A DNA stretch of 17,364 nt, taken from the IMG/VR virus record IMGVR_UViG_2703718840_000006, one strand, 5' to 3'. The DNA is from a virus (taxonomy: Duplodnaviria > Heunggongvirae > Uroviricota > Caudoviricetes). A model generated the notes under the pieces. The model did not search any database. It was not told where the DNA came from and was given only the letters and a program-made list of their open reading frames with translations. Positions 1 through 17,364 of this stretch are shown here, in pieces. Numbering within the stretch: position 1 is the stretch's first letter; each line of letters starts with the position of its first letter. The position numbers and the translations under genes were made by a program.

Positions 1-897
1 CTATGACTTGCTGTTTTCAGTAAGAGTCTTATCATCCAAAGAATTTATTCTAGAAATTCTTTTTAACTCATTAAGATAATCAACCTCGTTTTCTAAGAAC
101 CAATGAAGAACTTTAGAATTGCCAAGTAATTTATTAATATATGACTGGATTATAACGAATTTCAACATATCTGAACCATACTCGGTTTGAAGCTTTTTCG
201 TTTCTTCCGAAGTTGTTGCCATTTCTTGTTCCAGACGAAGTATGGTTTTTTTTATGTCCTTTTTATAGGGAGTGTTTTTCCCTTTATTTACTATCATCGA
301 TGCCGGTGTTGCATCCAAGATGCTCATTGCAAATTTTTTACTATAATTATCAAAATTAATCATTGTACCGACTGCTTCAATTTGGCGAATTGGCTTCATT
401 TTCCTCAAAACGTCAAATGTAGCCTTAGGTATATGTTTATCAGAAAGTTTCGCAATTACACTTGGATCTATGCCGTTCATCACATTCGCTTTATCTTTTA
501 TGGCATCAACAGATATGCCCAAAGCAGCACTAAGTTTTTCAATTGATACTTTTGCCAGAGACTTAATTATCATTCTATGTTCTTCAACTACATTTATATG
601 ATTCACTTGTTTGTTAGGAGTGAAAGCATCATCTATGCTCGAAAGTATACATGGAGCTTTTTCTATACCTAAGTCTTTTAAAGCCTCAACCCTTAAATGG
701 CCATCAAGTATCTTAGTGACATCTTTATCTTTGTCATAGAATACTATTATTGGTTCAATAATACCTAAGCTTTCGATAGAGGTAACTATTTGATGATATT
801 TATGGCTTCGCTTTACGTTTTCTAATAATTCCTTAGATGGAATTAACTTATTAGTTTCCAGGTAAATAAAATTATCGCCAAAACGTATCTGAATCAT
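1..897 (-). CDS. ParB/Srx-family protein (ParB N-terminal domain plus HTH-like region); distal gene of a tandem ParB-like pair
   Basis: 298-aa ORF with stop at 1-3. ParB-box-like GHLRVEA within IIVFYDKDKDVTKILDGHLRVEALKDLG, then an HTH-like segment (SIEKLSAALGISVDAIKDK). Start overlaps the upstream ORF by 4 nt; AGAGG lies 8 nt upstream of the ATG. No adjacent ParA. Confidence 0.6.
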   Translation of the reverse strand: MIQIRFGDNFIYLETNKLIPSKELLENVKRSHKYHQIVTSIESLGIIEPIIVFYDKDKDVTKILDGHLRVEALKDLGIEKAPCILSSIDDAFTPNKQVNHINVVEEHRMIIKSLAKVSIEKLSAALGISVDAIKDKANVMNGIDPSVIAKLSDKHIPKATFDVLRKMKPIRQIEAVGTMINFDNYSKKFAMSILDATPASMIVNKGKNTPYKKDIKKTILRLEQEMATTSEETKKLQTEYGSDMLKFVIIQSYINKLLGNSKVLHWFLENEVDYLNELKRISRINSLDDKTLTENSKS

Positions 898-1790
898 TTT
901 AATACCTCTTTGTTTACTGGGGTTAATATCTGAGATGGTAGTTCTGAAAGATTCTCTTGTTCAAGTATATGTTGAAAGCTTTTATTCATCATTATGATGT
1001 TAAAAATCTCATTTACTATTAGTAGGTTGGTTTTTATGAATTTTGAGTTGTTATAAACAGATTTATGTTCAGCGATACTATTTTCATAAAGCTCAATCAA
1101 CTCCTCTGCAGTCATCCTTTTTGATGGTTTGTGATAATAAAATCCGGCTGCTTTTGCACCTTTATTCCCAACTGTTCTTTGATTTAGAATGTGTTTTATC
1201 TTTATAATGTCCCGACTTTTTATTAATTTTTTATCATATGCTTCGGTAAGAATATCTTGTGCTTCCTCAGTTTCACATCTTGCAAATTGCACTGCGAGAT
1301 ACAGAGGCAAATTACCCCGTTCGACTGCTGAGAGAAGTTTATGCTCTCCCTTATCAAGTAGCATATTAATACTGCTCACCCAGTTCGATGAATATCCAGT
1401 AATCTCACTTATTTCGGAGTCTGAAAGTCCTCTGATTTTCATGTCTTTAATCACCTGTAATAACTCATTAGAACGTGGTCTTCTCCTTGCAATGTTTTCA
1501 ACTAAACTCATAACGTAAGCATCTTCTTCTGATACATCTCTTATAATTGCTGGAATAATAGTTTCACCTAATGCAACGAGAGCCTCTATTCTCCCTTGAC
1601 CACAAATTAAAGCATATTTGAAATCGCCTTCATCAATAGCTCTTACGCTTATTGGCTTGCTTAATCCTCTTTTTTTTATGCTTTCCTTTATTTCTTCATG
1701 CACTACCTTATTTCTTGTTCGTGGGTTAAGAAATTTTATTTTTGCAATCTCAATTTGAATTATTGGGAATTCATTTTTTTCAGGCAGCAT
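894..1790 (-). CDS. ParB-family protein (ParB N-terminal domain, HTH, C-terminal extension)
   Basis: 298 aa. Motifs GQGRIEALVALG and LVENIARRRP in the N-terminal domain, followed by an HTH-like LSDSEISEITGYSSNWVSSINMLL. GAGGG lies 7 nt upstream of the ATG; overlaps the recombinase stop by 11 nt, suggesting translational coupling. Confidence 0.65.
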   Translation of the reverse strand: MLPEKNEFPIIQIEIAKIKFLNPRTRNKVVHEEIKESIKKRGLSKPISVRAIDEGDFKYALICGQGRIEALVALGETIIPAIIRDVSEEDAYVMSLVENIARRRPRSNELLQVIKDMKIRGLSDSEISEITGYSSNWVSSINMLLDKGEHKLLSAVERGNLPLYLAVQFARCETEEAQDILTEAYDKKLIKSRDIIKIKHILNQRTVGNKGAKAAGFYYHKPSKRMTAEELIELYENSIAEHKSVYNNSKFIKTNLLIVNEIFNIIMMNKSFQHILEQENLSELPSQILTPVNKEVLK

Positions 1791-3336
1791 ATAGTTCCCT
1801 CACTTTCATGCGAGTAATAATTTGTAGAAGTTTATCAAGATTATCAAATCTATAGAGATCTAATCGAATGTTGTTTGTTTCCGTCATGCACATTTTATTA
1901 TATTCGTTTTCAATCTTTGGTATGATATAAAAATCAAGAGGTGAAATATTTTGTGAATTCATTCGTATAACAATTGTTATGTCTGCTTTCTGTGAGTTAT
2001 CAAACCGGACTTTCCATCTAAGTTTACCTGATTTCATATGTATGCATTTAGTAACAAGGACGGAAATTAAAAACTCATCATTGATGTAAAGCATTGGGGC
2101 ATATTTATACTCGTCTATATGACAGTTACTTTTTAAAATTTCACCCTTAAAATCCTCAATTATCTCTGAGTAAAATGATCTTAGTGCTTCATTTATTTTG
2201 AGATAGCTGTAATCATGTTCTGGCTTATAACCAATCAAAGTATATGCTCTTAAAAGACCACCAAATCGGGTTCTATAAACAGAAGATGAAGGGCCTGTAT
2301 CATCTTCATCAATGATAAAGCCTGATAGTTTTCCATTAGATTCTAATTTTTGTTTTAGTTTTTCTAATAGATCTTCATTAGTCAAATGAATGGATCGGAG
2401 CTGAATTATTTCTTGAGCTTTATTGTATTTTTTCTTTGAAATAATAGGTTTATATGCCTTGTCACATCTAACCCATTCATGTTTGGGGTTTTTTACAAGC
2501 CTACTTTTTAATTTAGATGAGGTTTTGTTATATATGTTGTTTCCAATATATTTTTCATTTGTCAAAATTTGATGTATTTTTGCACGAGTCCATAATGTTC
2601 CATTTTCTGCAGGTATGTTCTGTTCATTTAATCTCTCAGCAATAATGAATTCTGGGACGTTATTATCTATAAAGAGATCATATATTCTATTTACAATTTT
2701 TATTTCATTTTTTGGTCCCGGAATTAATATTACCCTATCTGTTTGAATACTCTTTCTTTTGCGGAAACTCAATATTTCTTTAGCTATGCCATTTTCGTCT
2801 ACTAAAAGACGTCTCAGCCCATAACCAGCCATACCGCCTTGATGATAACCAAGCTTTATTAAATTTACTTGCCCTATAAATACCTTTTCAGATAGATTCC
2901 TGCTGTGATATGCAGCACTAGATCTTTTTATATTCAGTATAACAGAGGACTCTAAAGGGAAATCTTTAGTGGGTATAGGTTCGGAACAATATATAAGATC
3001 TACACCATTTCTCTCAAATAGAAAGGAATAATATGCCGCTTCATCACTATTTTGAAAACGACCAAAACGGCTCACATCATAAAATAATACAGCCTGTATA
3101 TCTATTTTCTTTTGTTCTACATCGCTAAGTAACTGCTGCAAAGAATGCCTGCCTACGATACTGACTCCGCTCTTACCTGCATCATCGTAGGTATAAGCGA
3201 TTTCCATATTGTTCTTTTCAGCATAATCTTTGATATATTCGGACTGATTATGTAAAGAATATTGCTGATGGTCGGTAGACATCCTCAAGTACTGCGCGAC
3301 CCTAACTCTATGATTTTTGTCATTTTCGCTAGCCAT
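1780..3336 (-). CDS. Large serine recombinase (resolvase catalytic domain plus recombinase domain, divergent C-terminus)
   Basis: 518 aa. N-terminal YLRMSTDHQ (catalytic Ser context) and DDAGKSG; recombinase-domain-like GYHQGGMAGYGLRR. No clear CxxC zinc ribbon seen in the C-terminal ~200 aa. GAGG lies 9 nt upstream of the ATG at 3336. Confidence 0.75.
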   Translation of the reverse strand: MASENDKNHRVRVAQYLRMSTDHQQYSLHNQSEYIKDYAEKNNMEIAYTYDDAGKSGVSIVGRHSLQQLLSDVEQKKIDIQAVLFYDVSRFGRFQNSDEAAYYSFLFERNGVDLIYCSEPIPTKDFPLESSVILNIKRSSAAYHSRNLSEKVFIGQVNLIKLGYHQGGMAGYGLRRLLVDENGIAKEILSFRKRKSIQTDRVILIPGPKNEIKIVNRIYDLFIDNNVPEFIIAERLNEQNIPAENGTLWTRAKIHQILTNEKYIGNNIYNKTSSKLKSRLVKNPKHEWVRCDKAYKPIISKKKYNKAQEIIQLRSIHLTNEDLLEKLKQKLESNGKLSGFIIDEDDTGPSSSVYRTRFGGLLRAYTLIGYKPEHDYSYLKINEALRSFYSEIIEDFKGEILKSNCHIDEYKYAPMLYINDEFLISVLVTKCIHMKSGKLRWKVRFDNSQKADITIVIRMNSQNISPLDFYIIPKIENEYNKMCMTETNNIRLDLYRFDNLDKLLQIITRMKVRELYAA

Positions 3337-3506
3337 GCACGAAACCTCATGGATGATTCAATACAATGTAGTGGATAAAATTGATCAAATTTCAACCGAA
3401 TTCAACTGTTTTATCATTGATTAGAGCGAATTTGGTAGATCTTCGAGGTGTATGATAATCGAGAAGAGATGTGAATTATTTAGCTGATATGACCGACAGC
3501 TTTCGT

Positions 3507-3556
3507 TATGTGGACTCAATGTCCCCATTTGTAAATGGCTATGCTTAGTCCACATA
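3507..3556. repeat. Nested inverted repeat (10-bp arms TATGTGGACT/AGTCCACATA around an inner CCATTT-GT-AAATGG palindrome)
   Basis: Read directly: perfect 10-bp arms at 3507-3516 and 3547-3556, inner palindrome at 3525-3538. Lies between the integrase stop and the recombinase start. Candidate protein-binding or recombination site; no U-tract, so not a canonical terminator. Confidence 0.4.
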
Positions 3557-3618
3557 GGTTAATGGTGTGATTATTAATTCTTTAACTAAATCAAGATAGT
3601 TAATCCATCATGGGAGAG

Positions 3619-4848
3619 TTATGCGGCAATAACTTTGCATTTTTGAGACGAAACATAGTCACTCCACCATTGCATGAGAACCACCCGTTCAGTGAGATAC
3701 TCTGCACGATTGTAGGCTGCAATTATTTCATCTTTCTTCGAGTGGGCAAGGGCGGCTTCTAAGACATCAGTCCTAAACTTGCCAGACTCCTCAGCAGCCG
3801 TTCTAGCAATGGATCGCATACCGTGAGCTACAAGCTCACCTCCGAAACCCATACGGATTATGGCCGCATTAGCTGTTTGTTCATGCATGTGATTGAGTGG
3901 AGCTTTGATACTGGGGAACACCCACTCTCTATGCCCGCTGATGACTTTCATTAAATCCAAAACTCGCAAAGCTTCTTTGCTCAGTGGAACTTTGTGAGGC
4001 TTCTTCATTTTCATAAACTCCGCCGGGATGTTCCACATGCCAGTTTCAATATCAATATCTGACCATCTTGTGCGAACAGCTTCACCTGGGCGAACCCATG
4101 TGAGAAGTTGCCACTCAATCAGTAGCCTTGTTTCCAAACGGATAGAAGCATTGTTTAGAGCAACCAAGAAGCGAGGGAGTTCGGAAGGGGGTAATGCTGG
4201 CATATTCTGTTTTTTTGGCTTGCTGAACCGTTGCCCCAGGTTGTCTGCCGGGTTGAATTCTATGAGTTCTTCTGTTGCTGCATAGCGGAAAATTTCATTC
4301 AGGCGGGATATGATGCGGCGAAGTGTTTCAAGGACACCTCGTTTTTCTATGGGTTCTAAATGCTGTTTAAGCATTTTAGGGCGAATCTCCTTAATTGGGG
4401 TATCACCCAATGTGGAAAAGATATTTCTCTCTAGGCTTCGCCAGATGTCGTTAGCATGATCTTGGGAGATGCCTGACGTTTTGACTTTCTCATCAAGCCA
4501 CTTCTTGGCTACTGCTTGAAATGTATGTTCCGTGGCATCTTTCAGTGCATTGGCTTTTTGGTTGTTATGAACTTGGGGGTCTATACCATTTGTAAGCAAC
4601 GACAAGTATTCATCACGTAAAGCTCGTGCCTTCGCAAGTGTAAGGTGAGGATAGGTTCCTAAGCTCACCTTAGTTCGCTTTTTGGTCACAGGCACTGCAT
4701 ATCTGAAATACCAATTTTTCTTCCCTCCCTTCGCCAGGGGAGCGATTCGCAACAGCAAACCATCGCCGTCAAAAAGGTTAACCTCTTTTTCGGCAGGTTT
4801 GGTGCTTTTGATTTCAGTGTCAGTGAGCTTCTTAGCGATTTTGGCCAT
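3619..4848 (-). CDS. P4-type tyrosine integrase (arm-binding N-terminal domain plus catalytic domain)
   Basis: Start chosen at the internal ATG (4846-4848, MAKIAKKLTDTEIK) with GAGGG upstream; the track ORF extends to 4929 with a non-canonical start. N-terminal KLTDTEIKSTKP...LFDGDGLLL...WYFRY is typical of P4-like integrases; C-terminal HGMRS and AAYNRAEY supply the HxxR and catalytic Tyr. Lies immediately downstream of the ssrA 3' fragment, same orientation. Confidence 0.85.
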   Translation of the reverse strand: MAKIAKKLTDTEIKSTKPAEKEVNLFDGDGLLLRIAPLAKGGKKNWYFRYAVPVTKKRTKVSLGTYPHLTLAKARALRDEYLSLLTNGIDPQVHNNQKANALKDATEHTFQAVAKKWLDEKVKTSGISQDHANDIWRSLERNIFSTLGDTPIKEIRPKMLKQHLEPIEKRGVLETLRRIISRLNEIFRYAATEELIEFNPADNLGQRFSKPKKQNMPALPPSELPRFLVALNNASIRLETRLLIEWQLLTWVRPGEAVRTRWSDIDIETGMWNIPAEFMKMKKPHKVPLSKEALRVLDLMKVISGHREWVFPSIKAPLNHMHEQTANAAIIRMGFGGELVAHGMRSIARTAAEESGKFRTDVLEAALAHSKKDEIIAAYNRAEYLTERVVLMQWWSDYVSSQKCKVIAA

Positions 4849-5014
4849 GTTTGGGACCCTCGATTTTAGGACCCATCTTCGTGGGTCCCATTCAGGGTGC
4901 CATAACTCGTAGTTCTCAGCAATTCTCACTAGACTACAATAGACGTAAAAAAGCCCGCAGAGCTTGTGCTGTGCGGGCTTAGTAGACTTTACTGAACTTC
5001 AGTACATCAATATT

Positions 5015-5047
5015 TGGTGGAGCTGGCGGGAGTTGAACCCGAGTCCG
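5015..5047 (-). ncRNA. ssrA: 3'-terminal fragment of tmRNA gene ssrA (T-arm, acceptor 3' strand, CCA); integration-site core copy, not a full gene
   Basis: Minus-strand read CGGACTCGGGTTCAACTCCCGCCAGCTCCACCA matches my recollection of the E. coli tmRNA 3' end (GGGTTCAACTCCCGCCAGCTCCACCA). The adjacent upstream sequence is AT-rich and unrelated to tmRNA, and would overlap the methyltransferase CDS, so only the terminal ~33 nt are present. Confidence 0.75.
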
Positions 5048-5119: not shown

Positions 5120-6019
5120 TTATGTCTGGATGTGGTCGTCAACACATCCTCTTTTAAATATAGGCGCTTTTACCTTAGTTGGATCATCTGTTTTAAAGAT
5201 TTTCAATCGTTCACTGAAGAACATTACCTCAGATCCTTTGTACCGATCTTGAGCACTGTAGTTTATTCCATATACTAATGATGATGTCTTATACATAGCT
5301 TGGATCTCAGGAGTGTTATCGTAAGAAACAATCCAAGGCGTTTTAATATTATTCTGTACGACTTTTGCAACCCTAACATGATCATCATGATCATAATGGT
5401 TGATATATAAACCTTTACCTTTTATGTAATAAGGTGGATCCAAATATGTTAATGAGTTTTGTGGCAATTGAATAACTATTTTTTTTATGAAATCAATTGC
5501 ATCCATGTTATATAAATCTATTCTGTGACGATTTTCTGATATTTTATGGATTCGAGAAATCAAATCACTCTTATTATAGCGAGCGTCAAGCTTCCATTTC
5601 CCTTCTTGATTTTTACCGCCAATTACACCACCTTTTAATATTCCAGAACGATTTGTTCTATTGAGAAAAAAGGTTGAGAAACCAATTGTTAAAAGATCAT
5701 GGTCTTTAGGATTATTAATTATATCTTTCTGCCTAAACCATTCATCCATTGTAACTTCTGTTCTTTCAATTAAAGAACATAATTGATCTGCATGATTTAA
5801 TACACTGTGCCAAAAAGCATAAACAGAAATATTAATATCATTAAGGATGATTTTTTCAGCTGCATTTAGATGTAACAGTTTCAATGCTAAACCAGCACCC
5901 CCAGCATATGGTTCGGCATAATGTATAGGCGAAAGATTATTTTCTTCAATAATCCGAAGCATGAAATTTGCAAGCTTGCCTTTACCGCCAGGATAGCGAA
6001 GTGGGGTGTTAAAACGCAT
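5120..6019 (-). CDS. Dam-family (D12 class) N6-adenine DNA methyltransferase
   Basis: 299 aa. Motifs in Dam order: LRYPGGKGK, YAEPYAGGAGLA (AdoMet-binding), FFLNRTNRSG, YLDPPYY (catalytic DPPY). GAGG lies 6 nt upstream of the ATG at 6019. Target sequence cannot be read from sequence. Confidence 0.85.
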   Translation of the reverse strand: MRFNTPLRYPGGKGKLANFMLRIIEENNLSPIHYAEPYAGGAGLALKLLHLNAAEKIILNDINISVYAFWHSVLNHADQLCSLIERTEVTMDEWFRQKDIINNPKDHDLLTIGFSTFFLNRTNRSGILKGGVIGGKNQEGKWKLDARYNKSDLISRIHKISENRHRIDLYNMDAIDFIKKIVIQLPQNSLTYLDPPYYIKGKGLYINHYDHDDHVRVAKVVQNNIKTPWIVSYDNTPEIQAMYKTSSLVYGINYSAQDRYKGSEVMFFSERLKIFKTDDPTKVKAPIFKRGCVDDHIQT

Positions 6020-6053
6020 ATGATACCTCTAAATGTCAGATCTAAAGTATATC

Positions 6054-6092
6054 AAAAAAAGGGCTTTATGGCCATCACATAAAACCCTTTTT
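6054..6092. terminator. Bidirectional intrinsic-terminator-like hairpin between the ATPase and methyltransferase genes
   Basis: A7 (6054-6060), stem GGGCTTTATG / CATAAAACCC (one mismatch) with 7-nt loop (6061-6087), then T5 (6088-6092). On the minus strand the hairpin is followed by a U7 run. Confidence 0.45.
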
Positions 6093-6098
6093 AATCAA

Positions 6099-7832
6099 TT
6101 AGTTATCTGACAGATATGATGAGATGGTAGCAGAATCGACACCATGTCCACTTATCATAATAACTTTAAGACTCTTTATTAGTTCATTCTTGAAGCTATC
6201 CGATTGCACAGGATTTTTCTCGACCCAATATCGATATGGGTTATCTTTAACTCGTCCTTTGACTTGGTCCTGAAATTGAGTCGTATGTGCAAAATCTTTA
6301 AACAGTTTTCTCACTCTCCCGCCATGATTTTTGTTAACTTTTTTATAATTATCTATAAGGATTTTTAAATCAATCGGAGCGTTACCAATCTTTAGCGTTG
6401 TAATTATGTCTTTAGCTGTTTTCATAAAAACAGATTTTGTAAATTTATTTTTATTTTCCCAATATGCATCATCAGGTGGTAAATTATATAAAAACTCAAA
6501 AATCATTTGGTCTGGAGGTAAGGTGCTTGGAAGCAAACATAAGTTTTTTTCTTTTTTGGCTTTTTTTGCATTAGCACTGTTGTCGTGAACAACATCACCG
6601 TCTAAGACGATCAAGCTTTTAGCTGTAAATTCTGGTATTTTTCTTGCCATTAAGTCAAGCATGGCAGAGCAGCTAATATTTATATTTCCTAATGGATTTA
6701 ATATTTTATTTATTTTTCGATCTGTTATCAATTGTTTGAAAAAGTCGAAACCTTCTTTGTCTTCAAAATATACATTTGCTTTTGGAAGACAAATGTCATC
6801 ATTAATTTTTACAGTTTCAACATGTAAATCAGCGTGGATATCTGTCCATGAAAGATTATTCTTTGTTTTAATATCTCCATATGTGTCTGTAAGATATATT
6901 GTTTTAAAGCTATCACTATCTTGTTTTGAACGATTATAGATATCCTCTATTATTAATGGAGAGTGCGAGGTCATGATTATTTGCAGATCGTATTGTTTTG
7001 CTGCTTTAGTTAGAATATTAATTAGCTCTAACTGTGCAGCAGGGAAAAGACCTGCATCGGCTTCATCAATTAACAATATTCCGCCATGATAATCAGAATA
7101 AGTTTCCTTCAATCTTTTAAATGAAAAAATTGCTTGGATTAATTGTCCAACATTATCTTCACCAACAGATACTGATTGGTGATCATAATTGTCACCATGG
7201 ACAACCATTGAATCGATAGTACCTTTTGTTGCTGTTACTGAGCTTCCATTGTTTTTTAGTAAGAGTTGGTTACTCATCATTCTGATTTCATCAGAATTTT
7301 CATTGATGTACTGAACATCCCGTGTTGAGTAATCAGTCCTTAATGTAATAGGAAGAAGTCGTGCTAAGCTTAAAAAAATAACAGGATGAGTAACGTTTCT
7401 ACTTTGGTTTTTTTCCGGTATTGAATCATTTCCCCTGACTACAGGCCTTGATTTATCTCTGTCACTGTAGCTGTATAAACCTAATGTTAGTTTTTCAAGA
7501 TGTTTGTTCGATGCACCATCATAGACACTAATTTTGACGTCCATTGAACCAGGAACATCAAATTGTTCTGAAAGCCTAAAATGTTCGCTGAAAGCTGACT
7601 TGAAGCTGCCATTTGTTAATGTTTTATATTGTGTTAAATCAGTCTCAGGGTTTTTGGTAAAGTCCTTTGTAAAGCTAAATATTTGGGCGATAATGCCAAG
7701 AATTGTGGATTTAGATGTGCCATTTTTACCACAAATAACAGTTAGGCGAGAACCAAACTCGATGTTTATATTTTTCAGTCCGCGAAACTTCACAACATTT
7801 ATATTTTTTAGTTTGGTAATTTGATTTGCCAT
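6099..7832 (-). CDS. ABC/SMC-type ATPase with TOPRIM-like C-terminal region (OLD-family or fused PARIS-like nuclease candidate)
   Basis: Walker A GKNGTSKST, Walker B ILLIDEAD, H-loop IMTSHSP. The C-terminal ~250 aa contain FEDKEG and LDGD acidic motifs about 55 residues apart, consistent with TOPRIM (not verified). Start placed at internal ATG 7832 (MANQITKLKNI; GGAG upstream; Walker A then sits at the usual distance); the track ORF starts at 7883 with no SD. Confidence 0.7.
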   Translation of the reverse strand: MANQITKLKNINVVKFRGLKNINIEFGSRLTVICGKNGTSKSTILGIIAQIFSFTKDFTKNPETDLTQYKTLTNGSFKSAFSEHFRLSEQFDVPGSMDVKISVYDGASNKHLEKLTLGLYSYSDRDKSRPVVRGNDSIPEKNQSRNVTHPVIFLSLARLLPITLRTDYSTRDVQYINENSDEIRMMSNQLLLKNNGSSVTATKGTIDSMVVHGDNYDHQSVSVGEDNVGQLIQAIFSFKRLKETYSDYHGGILLIDEADAGLFPAAQLELINILTKAAKQYDLQIIMTSHSPLIIEDIYNRSKQDSDSFKTIYLTDTYGDIKTKNNLSWTDIHADLHVETVKINDDICLPKANVYFEDKEGFDFFKQLITDRKINKILNPLGNINISCSAMLDLMARKIPEFTAKSLIVLDGDVVHDNSANAKKAKKEKNLCLLPSTLPPDQMIFEFLYNLPPDDAYWENKNKFTKSVFMKTAKDIITTLKIGNAPIDLKILIDNYKKVNKNHGGRVRKLFKDFAHTTQFQDQVKGRVKDNPYRYWVEKNPVQSDSFKNELIKSLKVIMISGHGVDSATISSYLSDN

Positions 7833-7890
7833 GTTTGTATCTTGCTCCGTAAAATGGCCACAAATTGTGGCCAATAGTTTCATGCTTGGA

Positions 7891-9057
7891 TTATATTGTT
7901 ATCTTCTTCAAGCTTGTTTGTCCATCATATTCCTTCAGATATGAGCCATAGTGCCTGAAAAGCATCTCCGGTCCTTTATGCCCCATTTGAGCTGCAAGCC
8001 AAAACAGGTTTGCTCCTCGGCTGATATGGCTGGTGGCGAATGTATGCCTGGTTTGATATGGATTTCTGTATCGAATACCTGCTTTCCGCAATGTTGGAAC
8101 CCATGCTTTTTTCCTGATTGCATCAGCACTTGCCCAAGGCTTATTGGTCTTTGGGTCTTCAAAGACAGTAGCATCCTTCATGAATGTAAATGGCTTCTGA
8201 TTTATCAGCGCCAACATTGCTTCTTCTGTCAGTTCAACTTTACGAGTACCTGCTTTTGTCTTTGTCCCTTTGATAACACCGACAACACTTGCGCTCTGGA
8301 CATGGGCAGTTTTTCCAACAAAGTCGATATCACGCCATCGAAGGGCACATAATTCAGAACTACGCAGGCCTGTATGTATAGCGAACCGGAACAGATTCTC
8401 CCATTGTTTGTTTCCGGCTGCTGCTAGTAATGCATCAACTTCTGCTGGTGATAGCGGATCAACCACGTAGCTGCTTTCTGCTTCTGACTTATCACTTTGG
8501 TAGCGCGAAGCAGTTACCAACGATACGGGGTTAATTTGAAGTACCCCATCGGTTACGGCTTCATCAAGTGCTGACCGCAGGAAAGATAACTGGTTGCGAA
8601 TTGTTTTTAAGGTCGTTTTCTGGCTTTGAATCCACGCTTTCAGGATTGCTGGTGTTAATTCACTTGCAGGGCAAATGTGGAGTGAGGCTAACGCACTACG
8701 GCATTTTTTATAACCACCAATCGTTGAGGGTGAGAGTTTTCTCGTTTCGCAGATTTCAAGGTATTCGTCCAAGTACATTTTTACCGTTTTGCCTGCAGCA
8801 GCATTACCAAAAATTTTCAAACGAGCAGAACGGGGAAAATATTCCGCATAAATGAATGTTCCCCTTTCGATCTTATTATGAATTTCGCCGAGTGTGCGCT
8901 CGGCGTATTTAATGTTCTTTGGTGTTACTTCCAGATTGGAAAGAGGCTCACGACATTTAACTCCTTTATAGGTGAAAGTTATATTGATCGTTTCGCCCTG
9001 GCGGTGTTTCCTGATTGTTACGCCGCGCGGTAGTTTGAGCAGTTTTGTCTGGCCCAT
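7891..9057 (-). CDS. int: Lambdoid-type tyrosine integrase
   Basis: 388 aa. C-terminal catalytic signature QTRHTFATSH...GH...RHYGSY. Preceded by an overlapping excisionase-like gene. Transcribed toward the ssrA-derived att side, as in lambda. Confidence 0.85.
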   Translation of the reverse strand: MGQTKLLKLPRGVTIRKHRQGETINITFTYKGVKCREPLSNLEVTPKNIKYAERTLGEIHNKIERGTFIYAEYFPRSARLKIFGNAAAGKTVKMYLDEYLEICETRKLSPSTIGGYKKCRSALASLHICPASELTPAILKAWIQSQKTTLKTIRNQLSFLRSALDEAVTDGVLQINPVSLVTASRYQSDKSEAESSYVVDPLSPAEVDALLAAAGNKQWENLFRFAIHTGLRSSELCALRWRDIDFVGKTAHVQSASVVGVIKGTKTKAGTRKVELTEEAMLALINQKPFTFMKDATVFEDPKTNKPWASADAIRKKAWVPTLRKAGIRYRNPYQTRHTFATSHISRGANLFWLAAQMGHKGPEMLFRHYGSYLKEYDGQTSLKKITI

Positions 9058-12466: not shown

Positions 12467-13159
12467 TTAATTGTGTCGCTTAAGGGTTTGTGACTGGCTG
12501 ATTAAGACCTTTCCAAAGACCATAAACCGGTGTTCATTTTCGCTGGTAATTCCCCATTCACGGTAAATCTGGTTATCAGAAATCACCAGTAGTTTGTCAG
12601 GTATCATTTGCAGTCGTTTGACATAAATTTTATCATCAAAACCAAATACATAGATACCATCTCCATCAAACTGATTGATACTGACATCAACGAAGATGAG
12701 ATCTCCTGGCTCAATGGTTGGACACATACTGTCCCCACGAACGTTGATAACTTTAATGTGATTGGCTGGTCGTCCGCCAAACATCGATACAGCATTATCA
12801 GTTCTGTATTCAATGGCATGAATCACATCAATGACATCACCGCCCTGGATAAGGCCATTTCCCGCACTGGCACTGACATCCAGCATTTCAATACGGAATA
12901 CATCCTTCACCTGCGCAACATCCTCACTAATACTGTTTTTACATACAGTATTACTTTTGAAGTCTGAGGTAAAGAGATCAGCAATATCAACACCTAAGCT
13001 CCTGGCAATATTACTCAGGGCTTGTTCAGTGAATTGTTTCTGCTTACCTGTTTCCAGGCGTGAGATATTCGCCGCATCCACTCCTATTGCTTCAGCGAGA
13101 TCGGCGATTTTCATGTTCTTCGCCTGGCGAAGTTGTCTGACTCGATTTCCTATGTTCAT
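12467..13159 (-). CDS. cI: CI-like phage repressor (HTH_XRE N-terminal domain plus S24 LexA-like autopeptidase domain)
   Basis: 230 aa. N-terminal HTH (IADLAEAIGVDAANISRLETGKQ); C-terminal S24 signature GDSMCPTI (Ser nucleophile) and downstream VKR (Lys). Divergent from a cro-like gene across an operator-rich 97-bp intergenic region. Confidence 0.9.
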   Translation of the reverse strand: MNIGNRVRQLRQAKNMKIADLAEAIGVDAANISRLETGKQKQFTEQALSNIARSLGVDIADLFTSDFKSNTVCKNSISEDVAQVKDVFRIEMLDVSASAGNGLIQGGDVIDVIHAIEYRTDNAVSMFGGRPANHIKVINVRGDSMCPTIEPGDLIFVDVSINQFDGDGIYVFGFDDKIYVKRLQMIPDKLLVISDNQIYREWGITSENEHRFMVFGKVLISQSQTLKRHN

Positions 13160-13256: not shown

Positions 13257-13394
13257 ATGCAATCACCATTACGGAATGTGCGTAAAGCGCACGGATTTAC
13301 TTTGCAGCATGTTGCTGCGGGCGTTCAGGTCAATCCAGCGACGCTGAGTCGTATTGAAAGACAGGAACAAATTCCATCTACCGTCCATGAATGA
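13257..13394 (+). CDS. cro: Cro-like HTH protein, C-terminally truncated by a deletion junction
   Basis: 45-aa ORF not in the supplied track (too short). HTH_XRE-like segment FTLQHVAAGVQVNPATLSRIERQEQ. The ORF ends abruptly where lambda-G-like sequence begins. Confidence 0.55.
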   Translation: MQSPLRNVRKAHGFTLQHVAAGVQVNPATLSRIERQEQIPSTVHE

Positions 13395-13581
13395 AGCCGT
13401 TAAACAGATTGAGCAGGAAGTGCTTACCACCTGGCCCACGGAGGCAATTTCTCATGCTGAAAACGTGGTGTACCGGCTGTCTGGTATGTATGAGTTTGTG
13501 GTGAATGATGCCCCTGAACAGGCAGAGGACGCCGGGCCTGCAGAGCCTGTTTCTGCGGGAAAGTGTTCGACGGTGAGCTGA
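13387..13581 (+). pseudogene. G: Remnant of tail assembly chaperone G (C-terminal part only), fused to the truncated cro region
   Basis: Translation PSMNEAVKQIEQEVLTTWPTEAISHAENVVYRLSGMYEFVV...PVSAGKCSTVS matches my recollection of the lambda gpG C-terminus. ATG at 13387 overlaps the cro stop (ATGAATGA); no SD. N-terminal half of G is absent. Confidence 0.6.
13557..13563 (+). other. Programmed -1 frameshift slippery heptamer G GGA AAG (G-T frameshift site)
   Basis: GGGAAAG in the lambda X XXY YYZ register relative to the G-fragment frame (GCG GGA AAG). The downstream T-like ORF is in the -1 frame and overlaps by 19 nt. Confidence 0.6.
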
Positions 13582-13997
13582 GTTTTGCCCTGAAACTGGC
13601 GCGCGAGATGGGGCGACCCGACTGGCGTGCCATGCTTGCCGGGATGTCATCCACGGAGTATGCCGACTGGCACCGCTTTTACAGTACCCATTATTTTCAT
13701 GATGTTCTGCTGGATATGCACTTTTCCGGGCTGACGTACACCGTGCTCAGCCTGTTTTTCAGCGATCCGGATATGCATCCGCTGGATTTCAGTCTGCTGA
13801 ACCGGCGCGAGGCTGACGAAGAGCCTGAAGATGATGTGCTGATGCAGAAAGCGGCAGGGCTTGCCGGAGGCGTTCGTTTTGGCCCGGACGGGAATGAAGT
13901 TATCCCCGCTTCCCCGGATGTGGCGGACATGACGGAGGATGACGTAATGCTGATGACAGTATCAGAAGGGATCGCAGGAGGAGTCCGGTATGGCTGA
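13563..13997 (+). CDS. T: T portion of the tail assembly chaperone G-T frameshift product
   Basis: ORF in the -1 frame relative to the G fragment with no ATG of its own (track start is GTG). Sequence (FDGELSFALKLAREMGRPDWRAMLAGMSSTEYADW...GVRYG) matches my recollection of lambda gpT. Its stop overlaps an ATG GCT GAA CCG GTA (MAEPV) H-like start. Confidence 0.6.
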   Translation: MFDGELSFALKLAREMGRPDWRAMLAGMSSTEYADWHRFYSTHYFHDVLLDMHFSGLTYTVLSLFFSDPDMHPLDFSLLNRREADEEPEDDVLMQKAAGLAGGVRFGPDGNEVIPASPDVADMTEDDVMLMTVSEGIAGGVRYG

Positions 13998-14031
13998 ACC
14001 GGTACCCGGTGGTAATGGCTGCAGGGGCTGA
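13990..14031 (+). pseudogene. H: Five-codon remnant of the tape-measure gene H start (MAEPV) followed by out-of-context sequence and a stop
   Basis: ATG overlapping the T stop encodes MAEPV (lambda H begins MAEPVGDL in my recollection), then PGGNGCRG and a stop. Implies a deletion junction near 14005. Confidence 0.4.
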
Positions 14032-14239
14032 CTCAGGGCAGTGGGACGTTATGACATGGAGTGATGCTGATAATCAGCAGGTGAAACTGTCGATGACGGA
14101 ACTGGAGGAGCTGGCTGCAGCTATGGCGCAGGCGCAGGTTGATCGCAATAATGAGATTTATCGTCATCAGCGTGAAATGAAAGAGGAACTGAGCAATCTC
14201 CTGGATTTGAAGCAGGTTAGGGAGTTCAGTCCAGAATAA
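14009..14239 (+). CDS. Hypothetical ORF or gene fragment in the tail-fibre region (no ATG start, possibly a remnant)
   Basis: 76-aa track ORF with a non-ATG start, downstream of the H deletion junction. Helical-looking sequence with no recognised motif. May be the 3' end of a deleted gene. Confidence 0.3.
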   Translation: MVMAAGADSGQWDVMTWSDADNQQVKLSMTELEELAAAMAQAQVDRNNEIYRHQREMKEELSNLLDLKQVREFSPE

Positions 14240-14332
14240 GAAAAAACGTAGTACATCGTATTCAAGAGGATCTATGCTGGCATCGTAGCTGTTTTTAAAC
14301 AGTAAGTAGCCGTTGAAGGTCACAGGGGAAAA

Positions 14333-14695
14333 ATGCTCTTTGACTTGGCTTCCGGGGACGCACTATTTATCTCTGAACCAGGCCCATTAGCGGAAAATGT
14401 CACCTGGTTGTCGCCGGAAGGGGAATATCAGAAGTGGAACGGTACAGCCTGGGTGAAAGATGCAGAAGCAGAAAAACTATTCCGGATCCGGGAGGCGGAA
14501 GAAACAAAAAACAGCCTGATGCAGGTAGCCAGTGAGCATATAGCGCCGCTTCAGGATGCTGTAGATCTGGAGATCGCAACGGAGGAAGAAAATTCGTTGC
14601 TGGAAGCCTGGAAAAAGTATCGGGTGTTGCTGAACCGTGTTGATACATCAACTGCACCTGATATTGAGTGGCCGATAATTCCTGTAACATCATAG
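14333..14695 (+). CDS. tfa: Tail fibre assembly protein (lambda Tfa family, short form)
   Basis: 120 aa; ATG with AGGGGA upstream. Sequence [14 protein letters not shown]...[19 protein letters not shown]...[25 protein letters not shown] closely matches my recollection of the lambda Tfa C-terminal two-thirds. Confidence 0.8.
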
Positions 14696-14712
14696 TCATT
14701 ATTTATTTGTTT

Positions 14713-14743
14713 TGCTGACATGTTGTATACGACAACGTGTCAG
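14713..14743. terminator. 13-bp inverted repeat hairpin between convergent tfa and the HEPN gene (possible bidirectional terminator)
   Basis: GCTGACATGTTGT / ACAACGTGTCAGC arms (one G-T position) with a 5-nt loop. Flanking U-tracts are weak on both strands. Confidence 0.35.
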
Positions 14744-14807
14744 CAGTTTGACTGGTATTATAACGAATATATTGTAATGTTTTCTGGTGTTATTAATTGT
14801 TGTTTTA

Positions 14808-15761
14808 TTACCATATATCTATGGGTTTTGTTTTCTGCTCATCTAAACAAAATGCACAGATGTAAGCCCCCTTACTTCGGTTGTACTGAACCGTTTCTAA
14901 AGCAGAGTCAAGATGTTTACTATCAAAGTTCCAGCTTTTTTCCATAACAGAAACACATTTTCTGCAATAGAAACTTTCTTTTGAGTTAGTATCTCCTGAA
15001 TCATTTTTAGTGTAGCCAAAGAATTTTTTTGCTGATTCCTTTGAACATGCGGAAATGGCTGCAGTGAACTCATAATGAGTTTGAAGCATAGCCCATACAA
15101 TACCTGAAAATTCTTCATCCTCGTCTTCATCTAATCCTATATTAATGCCGCCAGAGGAATGTATTGCTTTATATTTATACCTATGCCATATCCAGTGTGC
15201 TGATTCAGTATTTAGATAGTTGTGAGCACGTACAACTGATGTGAAAATTAGCTCTGGCATTATATCTGTTTTTTTATCAACCGTATGCATAAAACGATTT
15301 CTTAGAATGCGCATACTATTAAACCAAGTAATAAAGTCATCAGGCAGTGATTTAGAGGCGAAAGTATTATATACTTTAATTAAATCTTGGGCGTCTAATG
15401 TGTGGAAGTCTGAAAATGAAATGTTACCTTCACTATCAGGTTTAGGTGTATTGCGAGTTGCATTCGTGATAAGTAGATAAGGTGATATTTCGACGATAAG
15501 TCCTTTTAGTCTGAATTCAATGGATTGAAGTATCAAATTAAAAGATGTAATCAATTTGGGTCTAGCAAATAACCAATAATGCTCTAAATTTTTAATATCT
15601 GATTCTGTATAGAATTCAGACGTTTTACAATAACTATTCCAAAGGTTTATATCTCTGTAATCATAAGCTAAATCGGCAATTTTTTCCCAAGCCTCATTTA
15701 CCATGTGGTCAGCCATTGTATAAAAATCAGTCTTTGTTGGAATGTCAGTTATCATTATCAA
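14808..15761 (-). CDS. HEPN-motif protein, Abi_2 (AbiD/AbiF)-like, with C-terminal CxxC...CxxC zinc ribbon
   Basis: 317 aa, AT-rich. Mid-protein ILRNRFMH matches the HEPN Rx4H motif and the Abi_2 RN..AH context. C-terminal CRKC-(28 aa)-CAFC. Own AT-rich upstream region. Confidence 0.5.
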   Translation of the reverse strand: MIMITDIPTKTDFYTMADHMVNEAWEKIADLAYDYRDINLWNSYCKTSEFYTESDIKNLEHYWLFARPKLITSFNLILQSIEFRLKGLIVEISPYLLITNATRNTPKPDSEGNISFSDFHTLDAQDLIKVYNTFASKSLPDDFITWFNSMRILRNRFMHTVDKKTDIMPELIFTSVVRAHNYLNTESAHWIWHRYKYKAIHSSGGINIGLDEDEDEEFSGIVWAMLQTHYEFTAAISACSKESAKKFFGYTKNDSGDTNSKESFYCRKCVSVMEKSWNFDSKHLDSALETVQYNRSKGAYICAFCLDEQKTKPIDIW

Positions 15762-15992
15762 TCTACCTTTGGGTCTTTATTGTTGTCTATCAAGATATAA
15801 TATTCAGGCTGGAGTGGCTAATGTTGATCTACTTATTTTCTCCCGGTAAGTCAGTTTATCGCGATATAAGCCGCATTTGATTTTGGCGACTATGGTCGTG
15901 TTAGGTATGTATCTGGCGTGTTACTGCGCCAGATTAAATATAAACCAATAATATTAAAGGGTGTTACTCTCTTGACAGATTTAGGGAACAAA

Positions 15993-16187
15993 TCACTCGT
16001 CAGCTGACTCCCAAGTATCTTTCAGAGTTTCCTGAACAAAAGTTTTAGCTGAATCTTTATCGGCGGTGCGCCTAACAGAAAAACCATCGTTGCTGGTGGC
16101 TTTTACGATCATCTCCACATCGTCATAATGCTCGCCAATGTATTGGGTTAATTCTTCCTTTAATGCGTCTACAGCGCCGTTTGGCAT
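15993..16187 (-). CDS. DinI-family protein (short form)
   Basis: 64 aa. [13 protein letters not shown] and the C-terminal TWESADE match the DinI pattern (AIDALAGEL...ETWESADDWF, from memory). In-frame stop 7 codons upstream excludes a longer form. Two LexA boxes upstream. Confidence 0.75.
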
Positions 16188-16241
16188 TTGGTCATTTTGT
16201 CTTTGGCTATGGAGATCTCAATACGCATAACATTTCTTTTG

Positions 16242-16289
16242 TACTGCGTTTGTAGACAGTATTATTCTTATCTGTGTAAATAAACAGTA
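16242..16289 (-). promoter_or_regulatory. Two LexA (SOS) boxes overlapping the dinI-like promoter
   Basis: TACTGCGTTTGTAGACAGTA (16242-16261; CTGC-N8-ACAG, one mismatch) and CTGT-N8-ACAG (CTGTGTAAATAAACAG, 16272-16287). On the minus strand a TTGATA -35-like hexamer sits directly upstream of the second box. 55-100 bp upstream of the start codon. Confidence 0.55.
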
Positions 16290-16470
16290 TCAAGACTTCG
16301 TTTTAGCTGCATAAGAAAAAAGAGATGGATACATTCGGAAAGATTTTGATGGTGGTAGGTTAAGTGAATAGCCTAAAGGTGTTTTACCCCAATTATTCCC
16401 CGGTATTTCTCCGCATAAAAAACAATCATAAAAACAACAGCCATAATAGGCTGGTTCTTAAGGGATTTTT

Positions 16471-16510
16471 GGTCCACGAGAGAATTTGAACCTCCGACCC
16501 CCGACACCCC
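16471..16510 (-). other. tRNA-like 3' fragment (T-arm plus acceptor 3' strand, no encoded CCA); possible attachment-site or mobile-element junction remnant
   Basis: Minus-strand read GGGGTGTCGGGGGTCGGAGGTTCAAATTCTCTCGTGGACC: T-loop TTCAAAT flanked by a 5-bp stem with two G-U pairs, then 7-nt acceptor strand plus discriminator. No complementary 5' acceptor strand upstream, and no match to any E. coli tRNA I can recall. Confidence 0.25.
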
Positions 16511-16531
16511 ATAATGGTGTAATTAATCAGG

Positions 16532-16900
16532 TTAAATATTTAGCAGATCCTCTACAATATCATTAAACCCAGATGCCTGTTTAGATACAGAATTGAATAA
16601 GTCTCTAAGTGCTTGTGTTTGCTCAAAAGTTTCCCAAAGTGTTTTATAACTTGGCGTTACAATTGCTAATACTAAGCCTTCCGCCCATGACCATTCATGT
16701 TCATCAAAATAGTAGCGATATTTTCTGCTGTATATAACAAAATCCTTTTCCTTATATTTAGCATGAAACACAACTTGAATTATATCCTGTGTACCATTAA
16801 CAAGGTTTTCAGGCGCATCAATTGCCATCCAATTTATCATTTTTTGGACAGTTAACTTATTTAATGAAACAATTAGCTTTGTGGTTTTATCGTTATGCAT
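16532..16900 (-). CDS. Hypothetical protein, second gene of a coupled two-gene operon
   Basis: 122-aa ORF; ATG 2 nt after the stop of the upstream ORF. AT-rich. No recognisable motif. Confidence 0.5.
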   Translation of the reverse strand: MHNDKTTKLIVSLNKLTVQKMINWMAIDAPENLVNGTQDIIQVVFHAKYKEKDFVIYSRKYRYYFDEHEWSWAEGLVLAIVTPSYKTLWETFEQTQALRDLFNSVSKQASGFNDIVEDLLNI

Positions 16901-16902
16901 AA

Positions 16903-17364
16903 TTAGTCCAGTTGCATATCTTTCACAATTTCGTTAACTCTTGAGTTGAGTATACTCAACTTCTCATAGAGCTTCCAGGCTTGGTCTTGGTCATTGATAT
17001 TAATGGAGATTTCTTTTCTTCGAAAGATTCCTTTGGGTTTGACTTCATCAAAAAATATATCAATCTTTGAGCGTTCCTTGGTTGGAAGCCTGCTGAAAAG
17101 GCTTTCAGTTAGCACTGCACACTCAGTAAACTCCTTACGTATAAATTCTTTCTGAGTAACCCAGTCTCCAATAGCATCATTTATCAATGAGGCTTTTTTT
17201 TGAAGATTGCTATGGATTTCAGGTATTCGAACCTTGTTTCTGAGAGTGGCCTTCAATGAACGCGTCGTAAAAAAAAGTTTTACAGTTACAACAAAACCGA
17301 CAATACCCGCTAGGGAGGATATGTCAGTTACCGTCTGTGATAGGGGCCAAGTCAGGATATCCAT
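16903..17364 (-). CDS. Hypothetical membrane-anchored protein (N-terminal TM helix); 5' end at the window edge, may be partial
   Basis: 153-aa ORF whose ATG is the last three bases of the window. Hydrophobic segment ISSLAGIVGFVVTVKLFF near the N-terminus, then a charged soluble domain. Confidence 0.45.
   Translation of the reverse strand: MDILTWPLSQTVTDISSLAGIVGFVVTVKLFFTTRSLKATLRNKVRIPEIHSNLQKKASLINDAIGDWVTQKEFIRKEFTECAVLTESLFSRLPTKERSKIDIFFDEVKPKGIFRRKEISININDQDQAWKLYEKLSILNSRVNEIVKDMQLD

What the first reader, a model, noticed from the sequence alone, without database searches (positions are those of the whole stretch)
16471..16510. Orphan tRNA-like 3' fragment without CCA between the dinI-like gene and the terminal operon
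Seen: a 40-nt stretch that folds as a T-arm (TTCAAAT loop) plus acceptor 3' strand, but with no 5' partner strand, no encoded CCA, and no match to any E. coli tRNA 3' end I can recall. Inference: possibly the scar of another integration event or the boundary between two accreted elements, which would mean the right-hand AT-rich genes belong to a different element from the lambdoid remnant.
Basis: seen in the sequence. Interest (0 to 1): 0.35.

Follow-up and report, generated by a model that had tools for sequence, protein, structure and literature searches.

The report
Fossil proL attachment site inside prophage
The 40-nt "tRNA-like" stretch is a decaying copy of the last ~50 bases of the E. 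coli proline tRNA gene proL, left over from an ancestral phage that integrated at proL and now stranded inside a phage that integrates at the tmRNA gene ssrA; this is an ordinary by-product of phage mosaicism, not a new kind of element.

Summary
On the minus strand, window 16470-16519 matches positions ~25-76 of E. coli tRNA-Pro(GGG) (proL): a 29-nt exact core, and 96% identity over 76 nt including the terminator (E 6e-31). The CCA is present. The lesions are G29A, C31T, C61T and a 2-nt acceptor-strand deletion. ARAGORN and Rfam find no tRNA.

The downstream terminator and spacer are the phage type. In 105 of 5,426 complete E. coli genomes this same block completes an intact proL at the end of a lambdoid prophage whose integrase is unrelated to the window's. 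In about 141 genomes, this window's type included, the block is orphaned ~1-3 kb from ssrA, behind variable cargo: two unknown genes here, AbiTii-like in CFT073, and GIY-YIG plus two genes in ATCC 11775.

A 44.6-kb circular phage record carries int, an intact ssrA-type attP, the two AT-rich genes, the orphan, dinI and tail genes on one molecule. A 34-nt ssrA repeat at 5014-5047 marks the phage's far end.

So the fragment is a fossil proL-type attP at a mosaic joint. It is not a border between two separately integrated elements. Interest is low.

The parts
16470..16519 (-). Orphan 3' part of tRNA-Pro(GGG)/proL (tRNA positions ~25-76): anticodon arm, variable loop, T arm, acceptor 3' strand and CCA. 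Lesions relative to proL are G29A, C31T, C61T and a 2-nt deletion in the acceptor strand.
   Evidence: alignment A1; no tRNA called
16428..16469 (-). Phage-type tRNA trailer plus intrinsic terminator (AAAAATCCCTTAAGAA CCAGCC-TATTAT-GGCTG TTGTTTTT). The stem is weakened here by GG>TT/TG changes relative to other copies. This is the phage-side trailer of the proL prophage junction, not the host trailer.
16229..16427 (-). Spacer with the dinI upstream region. It holds a perfect LexA-box consensus TACTG-N10-CAGTA at 16242-16261 and a 2-mismatch copy at 16270-16289.
   Evidence: conserved with proL-phage and CFT073 copies
15993..16228 (-). DinI-like gene. The 64-aa ORF 15993-16187 matches Pfam DinI; RefSeq annotates the longer form as frameshifted. 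In related phages it is the last gene before attP.
14311..16519 (.). Right-end block shared at 97.1% with a proL-integrated lambdoid prophage (strain 2020N21-246). The homology ends at the 5' edge of the orphan.
16532..16900 (-). Cargo gene 2 (122 aa, 36% GC for the pair). No Pfam, PHROGs or PADLOC match.
16903..17364 (-). Cargo gene 1 (153 aa). No family match. It lies directly downstream of the ssrA-type att arm in complete genomes and in the circular phage.
5014..5047 (-). 34-nt copy (33/34) of the ssrA 3' end. This is the distal att repeat of the lambdoid phage and the true border with the next tandem element.
7891..9057 (-). Tyrosine integrase of the lambdoid phage (388 aa). It is 97% identical to the integrase of the circular ssrA-attP phage and unrelated to the proL-phage integrase (22% identity over 98 aa).
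5120..7883 (-). Second cargo slot between int and the att repeat: Dam-type methylase (PD-Lambda-5_B, E 6e-124) and an AAA/OLD-like ATPase. The circular phage has ParA plus two hypothetical genes in this slot.

Best explanation
The fragment is a fossil phage attachment site. Lambdoid phages of one lineage integrate into the anticodon loop of proL. Their attP carries the 3' part of proL (from about position 32 to CCA) plus their own terminator, placed just after dinI, so that integration rebuilds a working proL.

In the ancestry of the window's phage, the neighbouring P arm and proL-specific integrase were replaced by a different integration module: an unrelated integrase plus an attP that targets the 3' end of ssrA. 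The dinI-terminator-proL block stayed behind. It now lies about 1 kb inside the phage, separated from the active ssrA-type att by a variable cargo slot.

With no 5' half, no cognate integrase and no selection for tRNA function, the fragment is decaying. It most probably does nothing as a tRNA or as an att site. The only plausible residual activity belongs to its attached terminator, which would stop read-through from the cargo genes into the SOS-controlled dinI promoter.

Shown: identity to proL; the phage-type flank; both contexts (proL and ssrA); the unrelated integrases; one-molecule carriage; private lesions in each copy.
Inferred: the direction of the module swap, and the lack of function.
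For: 1. Homology to proL positions ~25-76, with a 29-nt exact core.
2. The trailer and terminator match the phage side of the proL prophage junction (L002). They do not match the host trailer seen at the empty site (BL21, L019) or at the displaced copy (L006).
3. In 105 of 5,426 genomes the same block completes an intact proL beside yejM. About 250 genomes carry the block in all.
4. Orphan copies lie next to ssrA-proximal cargo in 13 + 15 + 113 genomes (architectures; tmRNA confirmed).
5. Six proL prophage attL copies show a variable phage-side sequence immediately 5' of ATGGGG. The phage/host identity block therefore begins in the anticodon loop, which is the anticodon-centred site class described in PMC4383910.
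6. The window's integrase is unrelated to the proL-phage integrase but 97% identical to that of a circular phage with an intact ssrA-type attP.
7. Each orphan type has different inactivating lesions: the window has C61T and a 2-nt deletion; CFT073 has CCA>CAA; L008 has a 1-nt deletion; the ATCC 11775 type has U47G; L014 is truncated to ~12 nt.
8. E. coli 042 has the same int-type phage at ssrA without the dinI/fragment block, so the block is a swappable module.
Against: The event that created the joint is not resolved. Three different cargo types join the conserved block within ~2 nt of each other, 5-6 nt upstream of the identity block. That is tighter than random illegitimate recombination predicts.

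The 5-13 nt upstream of ATGGGG in the orphans resemble the host tRNA (5/7 matches, and 10/13 in the ATCC 11775 type) more than most phage P-side sequences do. An attR-derived origin or a pseudo-site origin is therefore not excluded.

No proL lysogen with the orphans' 'CCATC' variant at its attL was found in viral contigs.

Lack of function is inferred from the lesions, not measured. The block is retained at 94-97% identity in two different prophage backbones, although the linked dinI gene could account for that.
Confidence: 0.85

Rival explanations
1. One reading: the fragment is the border between two independently integrated elements, and the AT-rich genes belong to a separate island that accreted next to the lambdoid remnant.
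For: The cargo is AT-rich (36% GC against 47% for the phage early region) and varies between strains. Homology to the proL phage stops at the fragment. Tandem arrays do exist at this ssrA locus.
Against: The fragment derives from proL, not from ssrA, the tDNA that heads this array. Its flank is phage-type, not a displaced host copy. No integrase and no ssrA repeat lie between the cargo and the lambdoid genes. The circular phage record carries cargo, fragment and lambdoid genes together, with one intact attP upstream of the cargo.
Confidence: 0.04
2. Same fossil, different origin. The orphan descends from a regenerated proL junction (attR) that was picked up by aberrant excision of a proL lysogen, or by Int-mediated recombination with a proL-like pseudo-site in an ssrA phage. 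It would not then result from replacement of the P arm in a free phage genome.
For: The bases 5' of the identity block resemble host proL: window CACCATT, CFT073 AACCATC and ATCC type GTAGCTCGCCATC, against host GTAGCGCACCGTC (5/7, 5/7 and 10/13 matches). Most phage P-side sequences differ (GTGAC, GCGTC, GTGTC). A joint at the anticodon stem-loop is where an Int-catalysed crossover would fall (site class in PMC4383910).
Against: One proL phage lineage (L006) has a P side identical to the host, so resemblance to the host does not discriminate. All three orphan types share the non-host A29, which argues for one ancestor rather than three pseudo-site events. No yejM-side host DNA accompanies the fragment.
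Confidence: 0.2
3. The fragment is still functional, either as a recombination anchor or secondary att site that mediates exchange of defence cargo, or as a tRNA-like 3' end that stabilises or processes the cargo mRNA.
For: Three cargo types join the block within ~2 nt. The slot is bounded on the other side by a conserved 152-nt ssrA-att arm. The slot holds defence-type genes in other strains (AbiTii-like, E 4.5e-33; GIY-YIG). The block occurs in both siphovirus-type and contractile-tail prophage backbones.
Against: No cognate integrase is present. Lesions differ from copy to copy and hit the T stem, acceptor strand and CCA. One copy (L014) is truncated well into the fragment. The fold is no more stable than shuffles. 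Ordinary homologous recombination through the flanking dinI block and the ssrA arm would explain cargo exchange without any special site.
Confidence: 0.07
4. Chance resemblance to a T arm, or a degenerate phage-encoded tRNA gene.
For: ARAGORN and Rfam call nothing. The fragment's fold z-score is -0.05.
Against: There is a 29-nt exact match and a 76-nt alignment at E 6e-31 to proL and its phage trailer. None of nine aligned copies has a 5' half, other than the true proL junctions. The same block completes proL in 105 genomes.
Confidence: 0.01

Closest known systems
tDNA fragment carried in the attP of tRNA-integrating phages and islands (anticodon-centred site class; Reiter 1989 and Williams 2002 as cited in Islander, PMC4383910)
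   Same: It is a 3' tRNA gene fragment beginning at the anticodon loop and running to CCA, followed by an element-supplied terminator. The identical block rebuilds proL at the end of related prophages in 105 genomes.
   Different: In this window the block is not at an element end, is not joined to a 5' tRNA half, has no cognate integrase, and carries inactivating lesions. It is a relic of that kind of site, not a working one.
Tandem island arrays at the tmRNA gene ssrA (Williams 2003, 'Traffic at the tmRNA gene', from my own knowledge and the reference list of PMC4383910; the E. coli K-12 CP4-57 arrangement ssrA-intA is also from my own knowledge)
   Same: The locus is an ssrA array. A 34-nt ssrA 3' repeat at 5014-5047 is followed by a P4-type integrase, and different elements occupy that position in other strains.
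   Different: The proL fragment is not one of the array's ssrA repeats and does not delimit an array member.
Integration-module (int/att) exchange among mosaic lambdoid phages
   Same: Closely related right-end and early-region sequences (97% and 95%) are combined with unrelated integrases and different chromosomal targets (proL against ssrA).
   Different: Here the swap left the old attP core in place next to the new one, so both specificities can be read in one genome. I found no published description of this particular proL fossil.
Variable defence or moron hotspots at prophage and satellite ends (P2/P4-type hotspots, from my own knowledge)
   Same: A short slot with sharp conserved borders next to the att site holds different small gene sets in different strains. 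These include an AbiTii-like gene and, at the other att-proximal slot, a PD-Lambda-5-like pair.
   Different: One border of the slot is a fossil tRNA-derived att core. The window's own two cargo genes match no known defence family.

Membership tests
Functional tRNA gene (tRNA-Pro) | Complete cloverleaf with 5' acceptor strand and D arm, detectable by tRNA finders | tested here: not met
   ARAGORN finds 0 genes in the window. Rfam at E<=10 gives no tRNA hit in 15900-17000. The sequence 5' of 16519 is the end of a protein-coding ORF.
Functional tRNA gene (tRNA-Pro) | Intact 7-nt acceptor 3' strand, discriminator base and T stem | tested here: not met
   2-nt deletion in the acceptor strand and C61T in the T stem relative to proL.
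Element-borne tDNA fragment of a tRNA-targeting attP (regenerating copy) | Sequence identity to the 3' part of a host tDNA, starting at the anticodon loop or T loop and reaching the 3' end | tested here: met
   Match to proL from about position 25/32 to A76, with a 29-nt exact core. The identity-block start was mapped from six attL copies.
Element-borne tDNA fragment of a tRNA-targeting attP (regenerating copy) | The same fragment with the same element-side flank completes the tDNA at the end of related integrated elements | tested here: met
   Strain 2020N21-246 and 105 genomes in all. The displaced host copy with the host terminator lies at the int-proximal end.
Active att site of the resident element | Cognate integrase encoded in the element | tested here: not met
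   The window's integrase shares 22% identity over 98 aa with the proL-phage integrase. It is 97% identical to the integrase of a phage with an ssrA-type attP.
Active att site of the resident element | Direct repeat of the core at the other end of the element | tested here: not met
   There is no second proL-like copy in the window or in 67 kb of the complete genome around it. The element is bounded by ssrA repeats instead.
Active att site of the resident element | Recombination at the site (excision or integration junctions) | not testable with these tools
   Needs read-level data or experiments.
Displaced tDNA fragment marking a border in a tandem island array | The fragment derives from the tDNA that heads the array and carries the trailer of the earlier occupant or host | tested here: not met
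   The array is at ssrA and the fragment is proL with a phage-type trailer. By contrast, 5014-5047 meets this test.
Displaced tDNA fragment marking a border in a tandem island array | The DNA on each side belongs to a separately mobile unit | tested here: not met
   Both sides are present on one 44.6-kb circular phage genome with a single attP.

The most novel reading that the evidence does not exclude
The fossil proL core is not inert. Together with the conserved 152-nt ssrA-att arm, it would define a cassette slot in which defence-type cargo is exchanged at a fixed joint, within ~2 nt in three cargo types. The exchange would run either through residual recognition of the core by proL-type integrases of co-resident phages, or through the dinI/proL block acting as a portable homology anchor shared by unrelated prophage backbones.
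Probability: 0.08. Interest if true: 0.5.

Novelty: new member of a known kind. Interest (0 to 1): 0.17.

Why it matters
The main value is for annotation and interpretation.

- The fragment explains an unannotated tRNA-like scrap that recurs in about 141 of 5,426 complete E. coli genomes.
- It shows that a tDNA fragment inside an island need not mark an island border. Tools that pair tDNAs with fragments could be misled by it, in the same way that PGAP calls the displaced proL fragment a tRNA gene.
- It gives a clean, datable example of int/att module replacement in lambdoid phages (proL specificity replaced by ssrA specificity).
- It is a convenient landmark for a variable cargo slot next to ssrA. 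That slot holds defence-type genes in other strains and, here, two uncharacterised small genes.

None of this changes current understanding of phage integration.

Tried and rejected
- tRNA and RNA-family detection: ARAGORN and Rfam at E<=10 gave nothing at the site. The four weak Rfam hits elsewhere are noise.
- Thermodynamic significance of the fold: not significant (z -0.05 for the fragment, -1.67 with the terminator). Fold stability cannot carry the argument.
- Search for a direct repeat of the fragment in the window and in the surrounding genome: none. Repeat family D5 (71% over 28 nt) is a chance match.
- Sequenced phage collection: only the dinI part matches (84-88%). No deposited phage in that collection carries the proL fragment.
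- Scan of viral contigs for a proL-lysogen attL with the orphans' CCAT(C/T) variant: no hit, so the direct ancestor attP was not found.
- Pfam, PHROGs and PADLOC on the two cargo genes and the 317-aa neighbour: no hits.
- Literature: no paper describing this fragment was found. Williams 2003 (PMC142792) is not held.
- Rejected ideas: a displaced host fragment (the trailer is the wrong type); a phage-encoded tRNA pseudogene (no copy has a 5' half); a chromosomal rearrangement between the proL and ssrA loci (the circular phage already has the arrangement).

Full report
**What is in the sequence**

Read on the minus strand, window 16520-16428 is ACACCATTATGGGGTGTCGGGGGTCGGAGGTTCAAATTCTCTCGTGGACCA, followed by AAAAATCCCTTAAGAACCAGCCTATTATGGCTGTTGTTTTT. 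ARAGORN finds no tRNA in the window. A permissive Rfam scan of 15900-17000 finds no tRNA-family match. The fold of the fragment alone is no better than shuffled sequence (z -0.05). The case rests on homology.

**Identity**

A megablast of the region against 5,426 complete E. coli genomes gave a hit (H14) that ended exactly at the fragment and lay under an annotated tRNA-Pro. That gene is the tRNA-Pro(GGG) next to yejM, the proL locus. The empty site in BL21(DE3) reads yejM-tRNA-Pro-yejO.

Alignment A1 shows the window copy matching proL from about position 25 to the terminal A76. A 29-nt exact core sits at 16484-16512, and 0 of 200 shuffles gave any match with up to 3 mismatches. BLAST gives 96% identity over 76 nt, E 6e-31.

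The differences from proL are G29A, C31T, C61T in the T stem, and a 2-nt deletion in the acceptor 3' strand. The CCA is present (TGG at 16470-16472 on the + strand).

**Which kind of tDNA fragment**

Strain 2020N21-246 has a complete 43-kb lambdoid prophage at proL.
- At its dinI end, the tRNA gene is intact and is followed by AAAAATCCC-TTAAGAACCAGCCTATTATGGCTGGTTTTTTT.
- At its int end lies a displaced 3' copy followed by the host trailer AAGAAAACCAACCTATTGCGGTTGGTTTTTTT. This is the same trailer type as the empty site.

This is the textbook arrangement, in which the element's attP carries a tDNA fragment that regenerates the target (PMC4383910). The window's fragment has the phage-type trailer and spacer. 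It is therefore the element-borne regenerating copy, not a displaced host piece.

Six proL-prophage attL copies have different phage-side bases immediately 5' of ATGGGG. The phage/host identity block therefore starts in the anticodon loop. This is the anticodon-centred site class that the same paper tabulates.

**Where it sits here**

In complete genomes with the window's right end (for example UK_Dog_Liverpool), the order on the minus strand is smpB, ssrA, 183 nt, 153-aa gene, 122-aa gene, proL fragment, terminator, dinI-like, 315-aa gene, tail fibre genes, and so on through the lambdoid early genes to the integrase, then ATPase and Dam.

A 34-nt copy (33/34) of the ssrA 3' end lies at window 5014-5047, immediately followed by a P4-type integrase (3619-4929). 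In strain NCCP 15734, the same Dam-ATPase-integrase-lambdoid unit abuts a different element at that repeat: a P4-like satellite carrying Hachiman-type genes. The repeat is therefore a genuine element border.

The lambdoid unit is bounded by ssrA sequences, and the proL fragment is internal to it. Its integrase shares only 22% identity over 98 aa with the proL-phage integrase.

**One phage or two elements**

RefSeq record NZ_CP148393.1 ('plasmid pZ1323HEC0010-3', 44,611 bp, circular) is a complete lambdoid phage genome. It carries, in order:
- an integrase 97% identical to the window's;
- ParA and two further genes;
- an intact ssrA-type attP: GGACGCTGGTTCAACTCCCGCCAGCTCCACCA followed by the same arm that follows ssrA in lysogens (99.6% over 240 nt);
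- the same 153-aa and 122-aa genes;
- the proL fragment, dinI and the tail genes.

The AT-rich genes, the fragment and the lambdoid genes therefore travel together.

**Distribution and decay**

About 250 genomes carry the phage-type spacer plus fragment.
- 105 have it completing proL next to yejM.
- 13 have the window-type joint.
- 15 have the CFT073-type joint, where the cargo is an AbiTii-like gene at E 4.5e-33.
- 113 have the ATCC 11775-type joint, with a GIY-YIG protein and two hypothetical genes as cargo in a contractile-tail prophage.

ssrA lies just beyond the cargo in every orphan-bearing locus long enough to show it. The three orphan types share ssrA plus ~152 nt, differ over 0.9-2.9 kb, and re-converge at the fragment.

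Each orphan has its own lesions: CCA>CAA in CFT073, a 1-nt acceptor deletion in L008/L011, U47G in the ATCC type, and truncation to ~12 nt in L014. The proL-completing copies are intact. That pattern indicates relaxed selection. E. coli 042 carries the same integrase-type phage at ssrA without any dinI/fragment block, so the block is a mosaic module.

**Best explanation**

A proL-targeting lambdoid phage lost its P arm and integrase to an unrelated ssrA-targeting int/att module. The old attP core, its terminator and dinI remained. Homology to the proL phage (97.1% over window 14311-16519) ends at the fragment's 5' edge.

The fragment is most likely inert. Its attached terminator is detected, in weakened form, at 16438-16453. 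It may still insulate the SOS-boxed dinI promoter from cargo read-through; a perfect LexA consensus lies at 16242-16261.

**What is not settled**

The three cargo types join the block within about 2 nt of each other, 5-6 nt upstream of the identity block. The few bases there resemble host proL and share a non-host A29. A single ancestral joint followed by cargo exchange through the flanking homologies is the simplest reading. An attR-derived origin, a pseudo-site (Int-mediated) origin, or some residual role in cassette exchange is not excluded. A scan for the matching attL variant found nothing.

**Comparison with known things and verdict**

tDNA fragments in attP sites, tandem arrays at ssrA and int/att module swapping in lambdoid phages are all well established (PMC4383910; ssrA as a lambdoid/Stx-phage site in PMC8065619). 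This is a further instance, with the minor twist that the superseded att core survives beside the active one. I found no paper describing it.

- Observation: partly confirmed.
- Interpretation: partly supported.
- Novelty: new member of a known kind.
- Interest: low.

Noticed in passing
window 5014-5047: A 34-nt copy (33/34) of the ssrA 3' end, followed leftwards by a P4-type integrase gene. This is the real junction between two tandem ssrA-integrated elements in the window. Other strains have a different element (a P4-like satellite with Hachiman-type genes) at the same junction.
   Followed up: yes
window 5120-6019 and 6099-7883: The Dam-class methylase matches PADLOC PD-Lambda-5_B at E 6e-124. 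The adjacent 594-aa AAA ATPase hits PtuA, GajA and AriA-type models. Together they look like a PD-Lambda-5-like defence pair in the slot between the phage integrase and its att repeat. The circular relative has ParA plus two other genes in that slot.
   Followed up: partly
window 16532-16900 and 16903-17364: Two small AT-rich genes (122 and 153 aa, 36% GC) have no Pfam, PHROGs or PADLOC match. They occupy a slot that holds an AbiTii-like gene in CFT073 and a GIY-YIG gene set in ATCC 11775. That makes them a candidate uncharacterised defence or exclusion pair. They occur in only 13 of 5,426 complete genomes plus one circular phage record.
   Followed up: partly
window 1-4929: The left element encodes two ParB/RepB-like proteins (1-897, 894-1790), a large serine recombinase (1780-3336) and a P4-type tyrosine integrase (3619-4929). 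In UK_Dog_Liverpool it continues into a type I R-M system and IS elements.
   Followed up: partly
window 13381-14310: The window's prophage is a remnant. About 11.8 kb of replication, lysis and tail genes present in UK_Dog_Liverpool (L001 6564-18412) is replaced here by ~0.9 kb of unmatched sequence. No complete E. coli genome in the collection has the window's exact arrangement (0 records with >=80% coverage).
   Followed up: partly
window 16242-16261, 16270-16289 and 12931-12950: A perfect LexA-box consensus TACTG-N10-CAGTA lies upstream of the dinI-like gene, with a 2-mismatch copy 9 nt away. Another perfect box lies inside the XRE-type repressor ORF (12467-13159). Matches with <=2 mismatches are enriched in the window (17 against 5.7 expected).
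   Followed up: no
L006 11547-11624 (NZ_CM125675.1 5026546-5026623): RefSeq/PGAP annotates the displaced proL 3' fragment at the int end of the proL prophage as a 78-nt tRNA-Pro gene. ARAGORN finds no tRNA there and the 5' half is phage sequence, so this is probably an annotation artefact.
   Followed up: yes
L020 (NZ_CP148393.1, whole record): A record deposited as 'plasmid pZ1323HEC0010-3' is a complete 44.6-kb lambdoid phage genome with an intact ssrA-type attP. It is presumably the excised or circular form of a prophage rather than a plasmid, although it does encode a ParA.
   Followed up: partly
window 14808-15761: A 317-aa gene between the tail-fibre assembly gene and dinI has no family match and is AT-rich (34% GC). 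It is conserved in both the proL-type and the ssrA-type phages. ATCC 11775 has a DUF262 (GmrSD-like) gene at the equivalent position.
   Followed up: no
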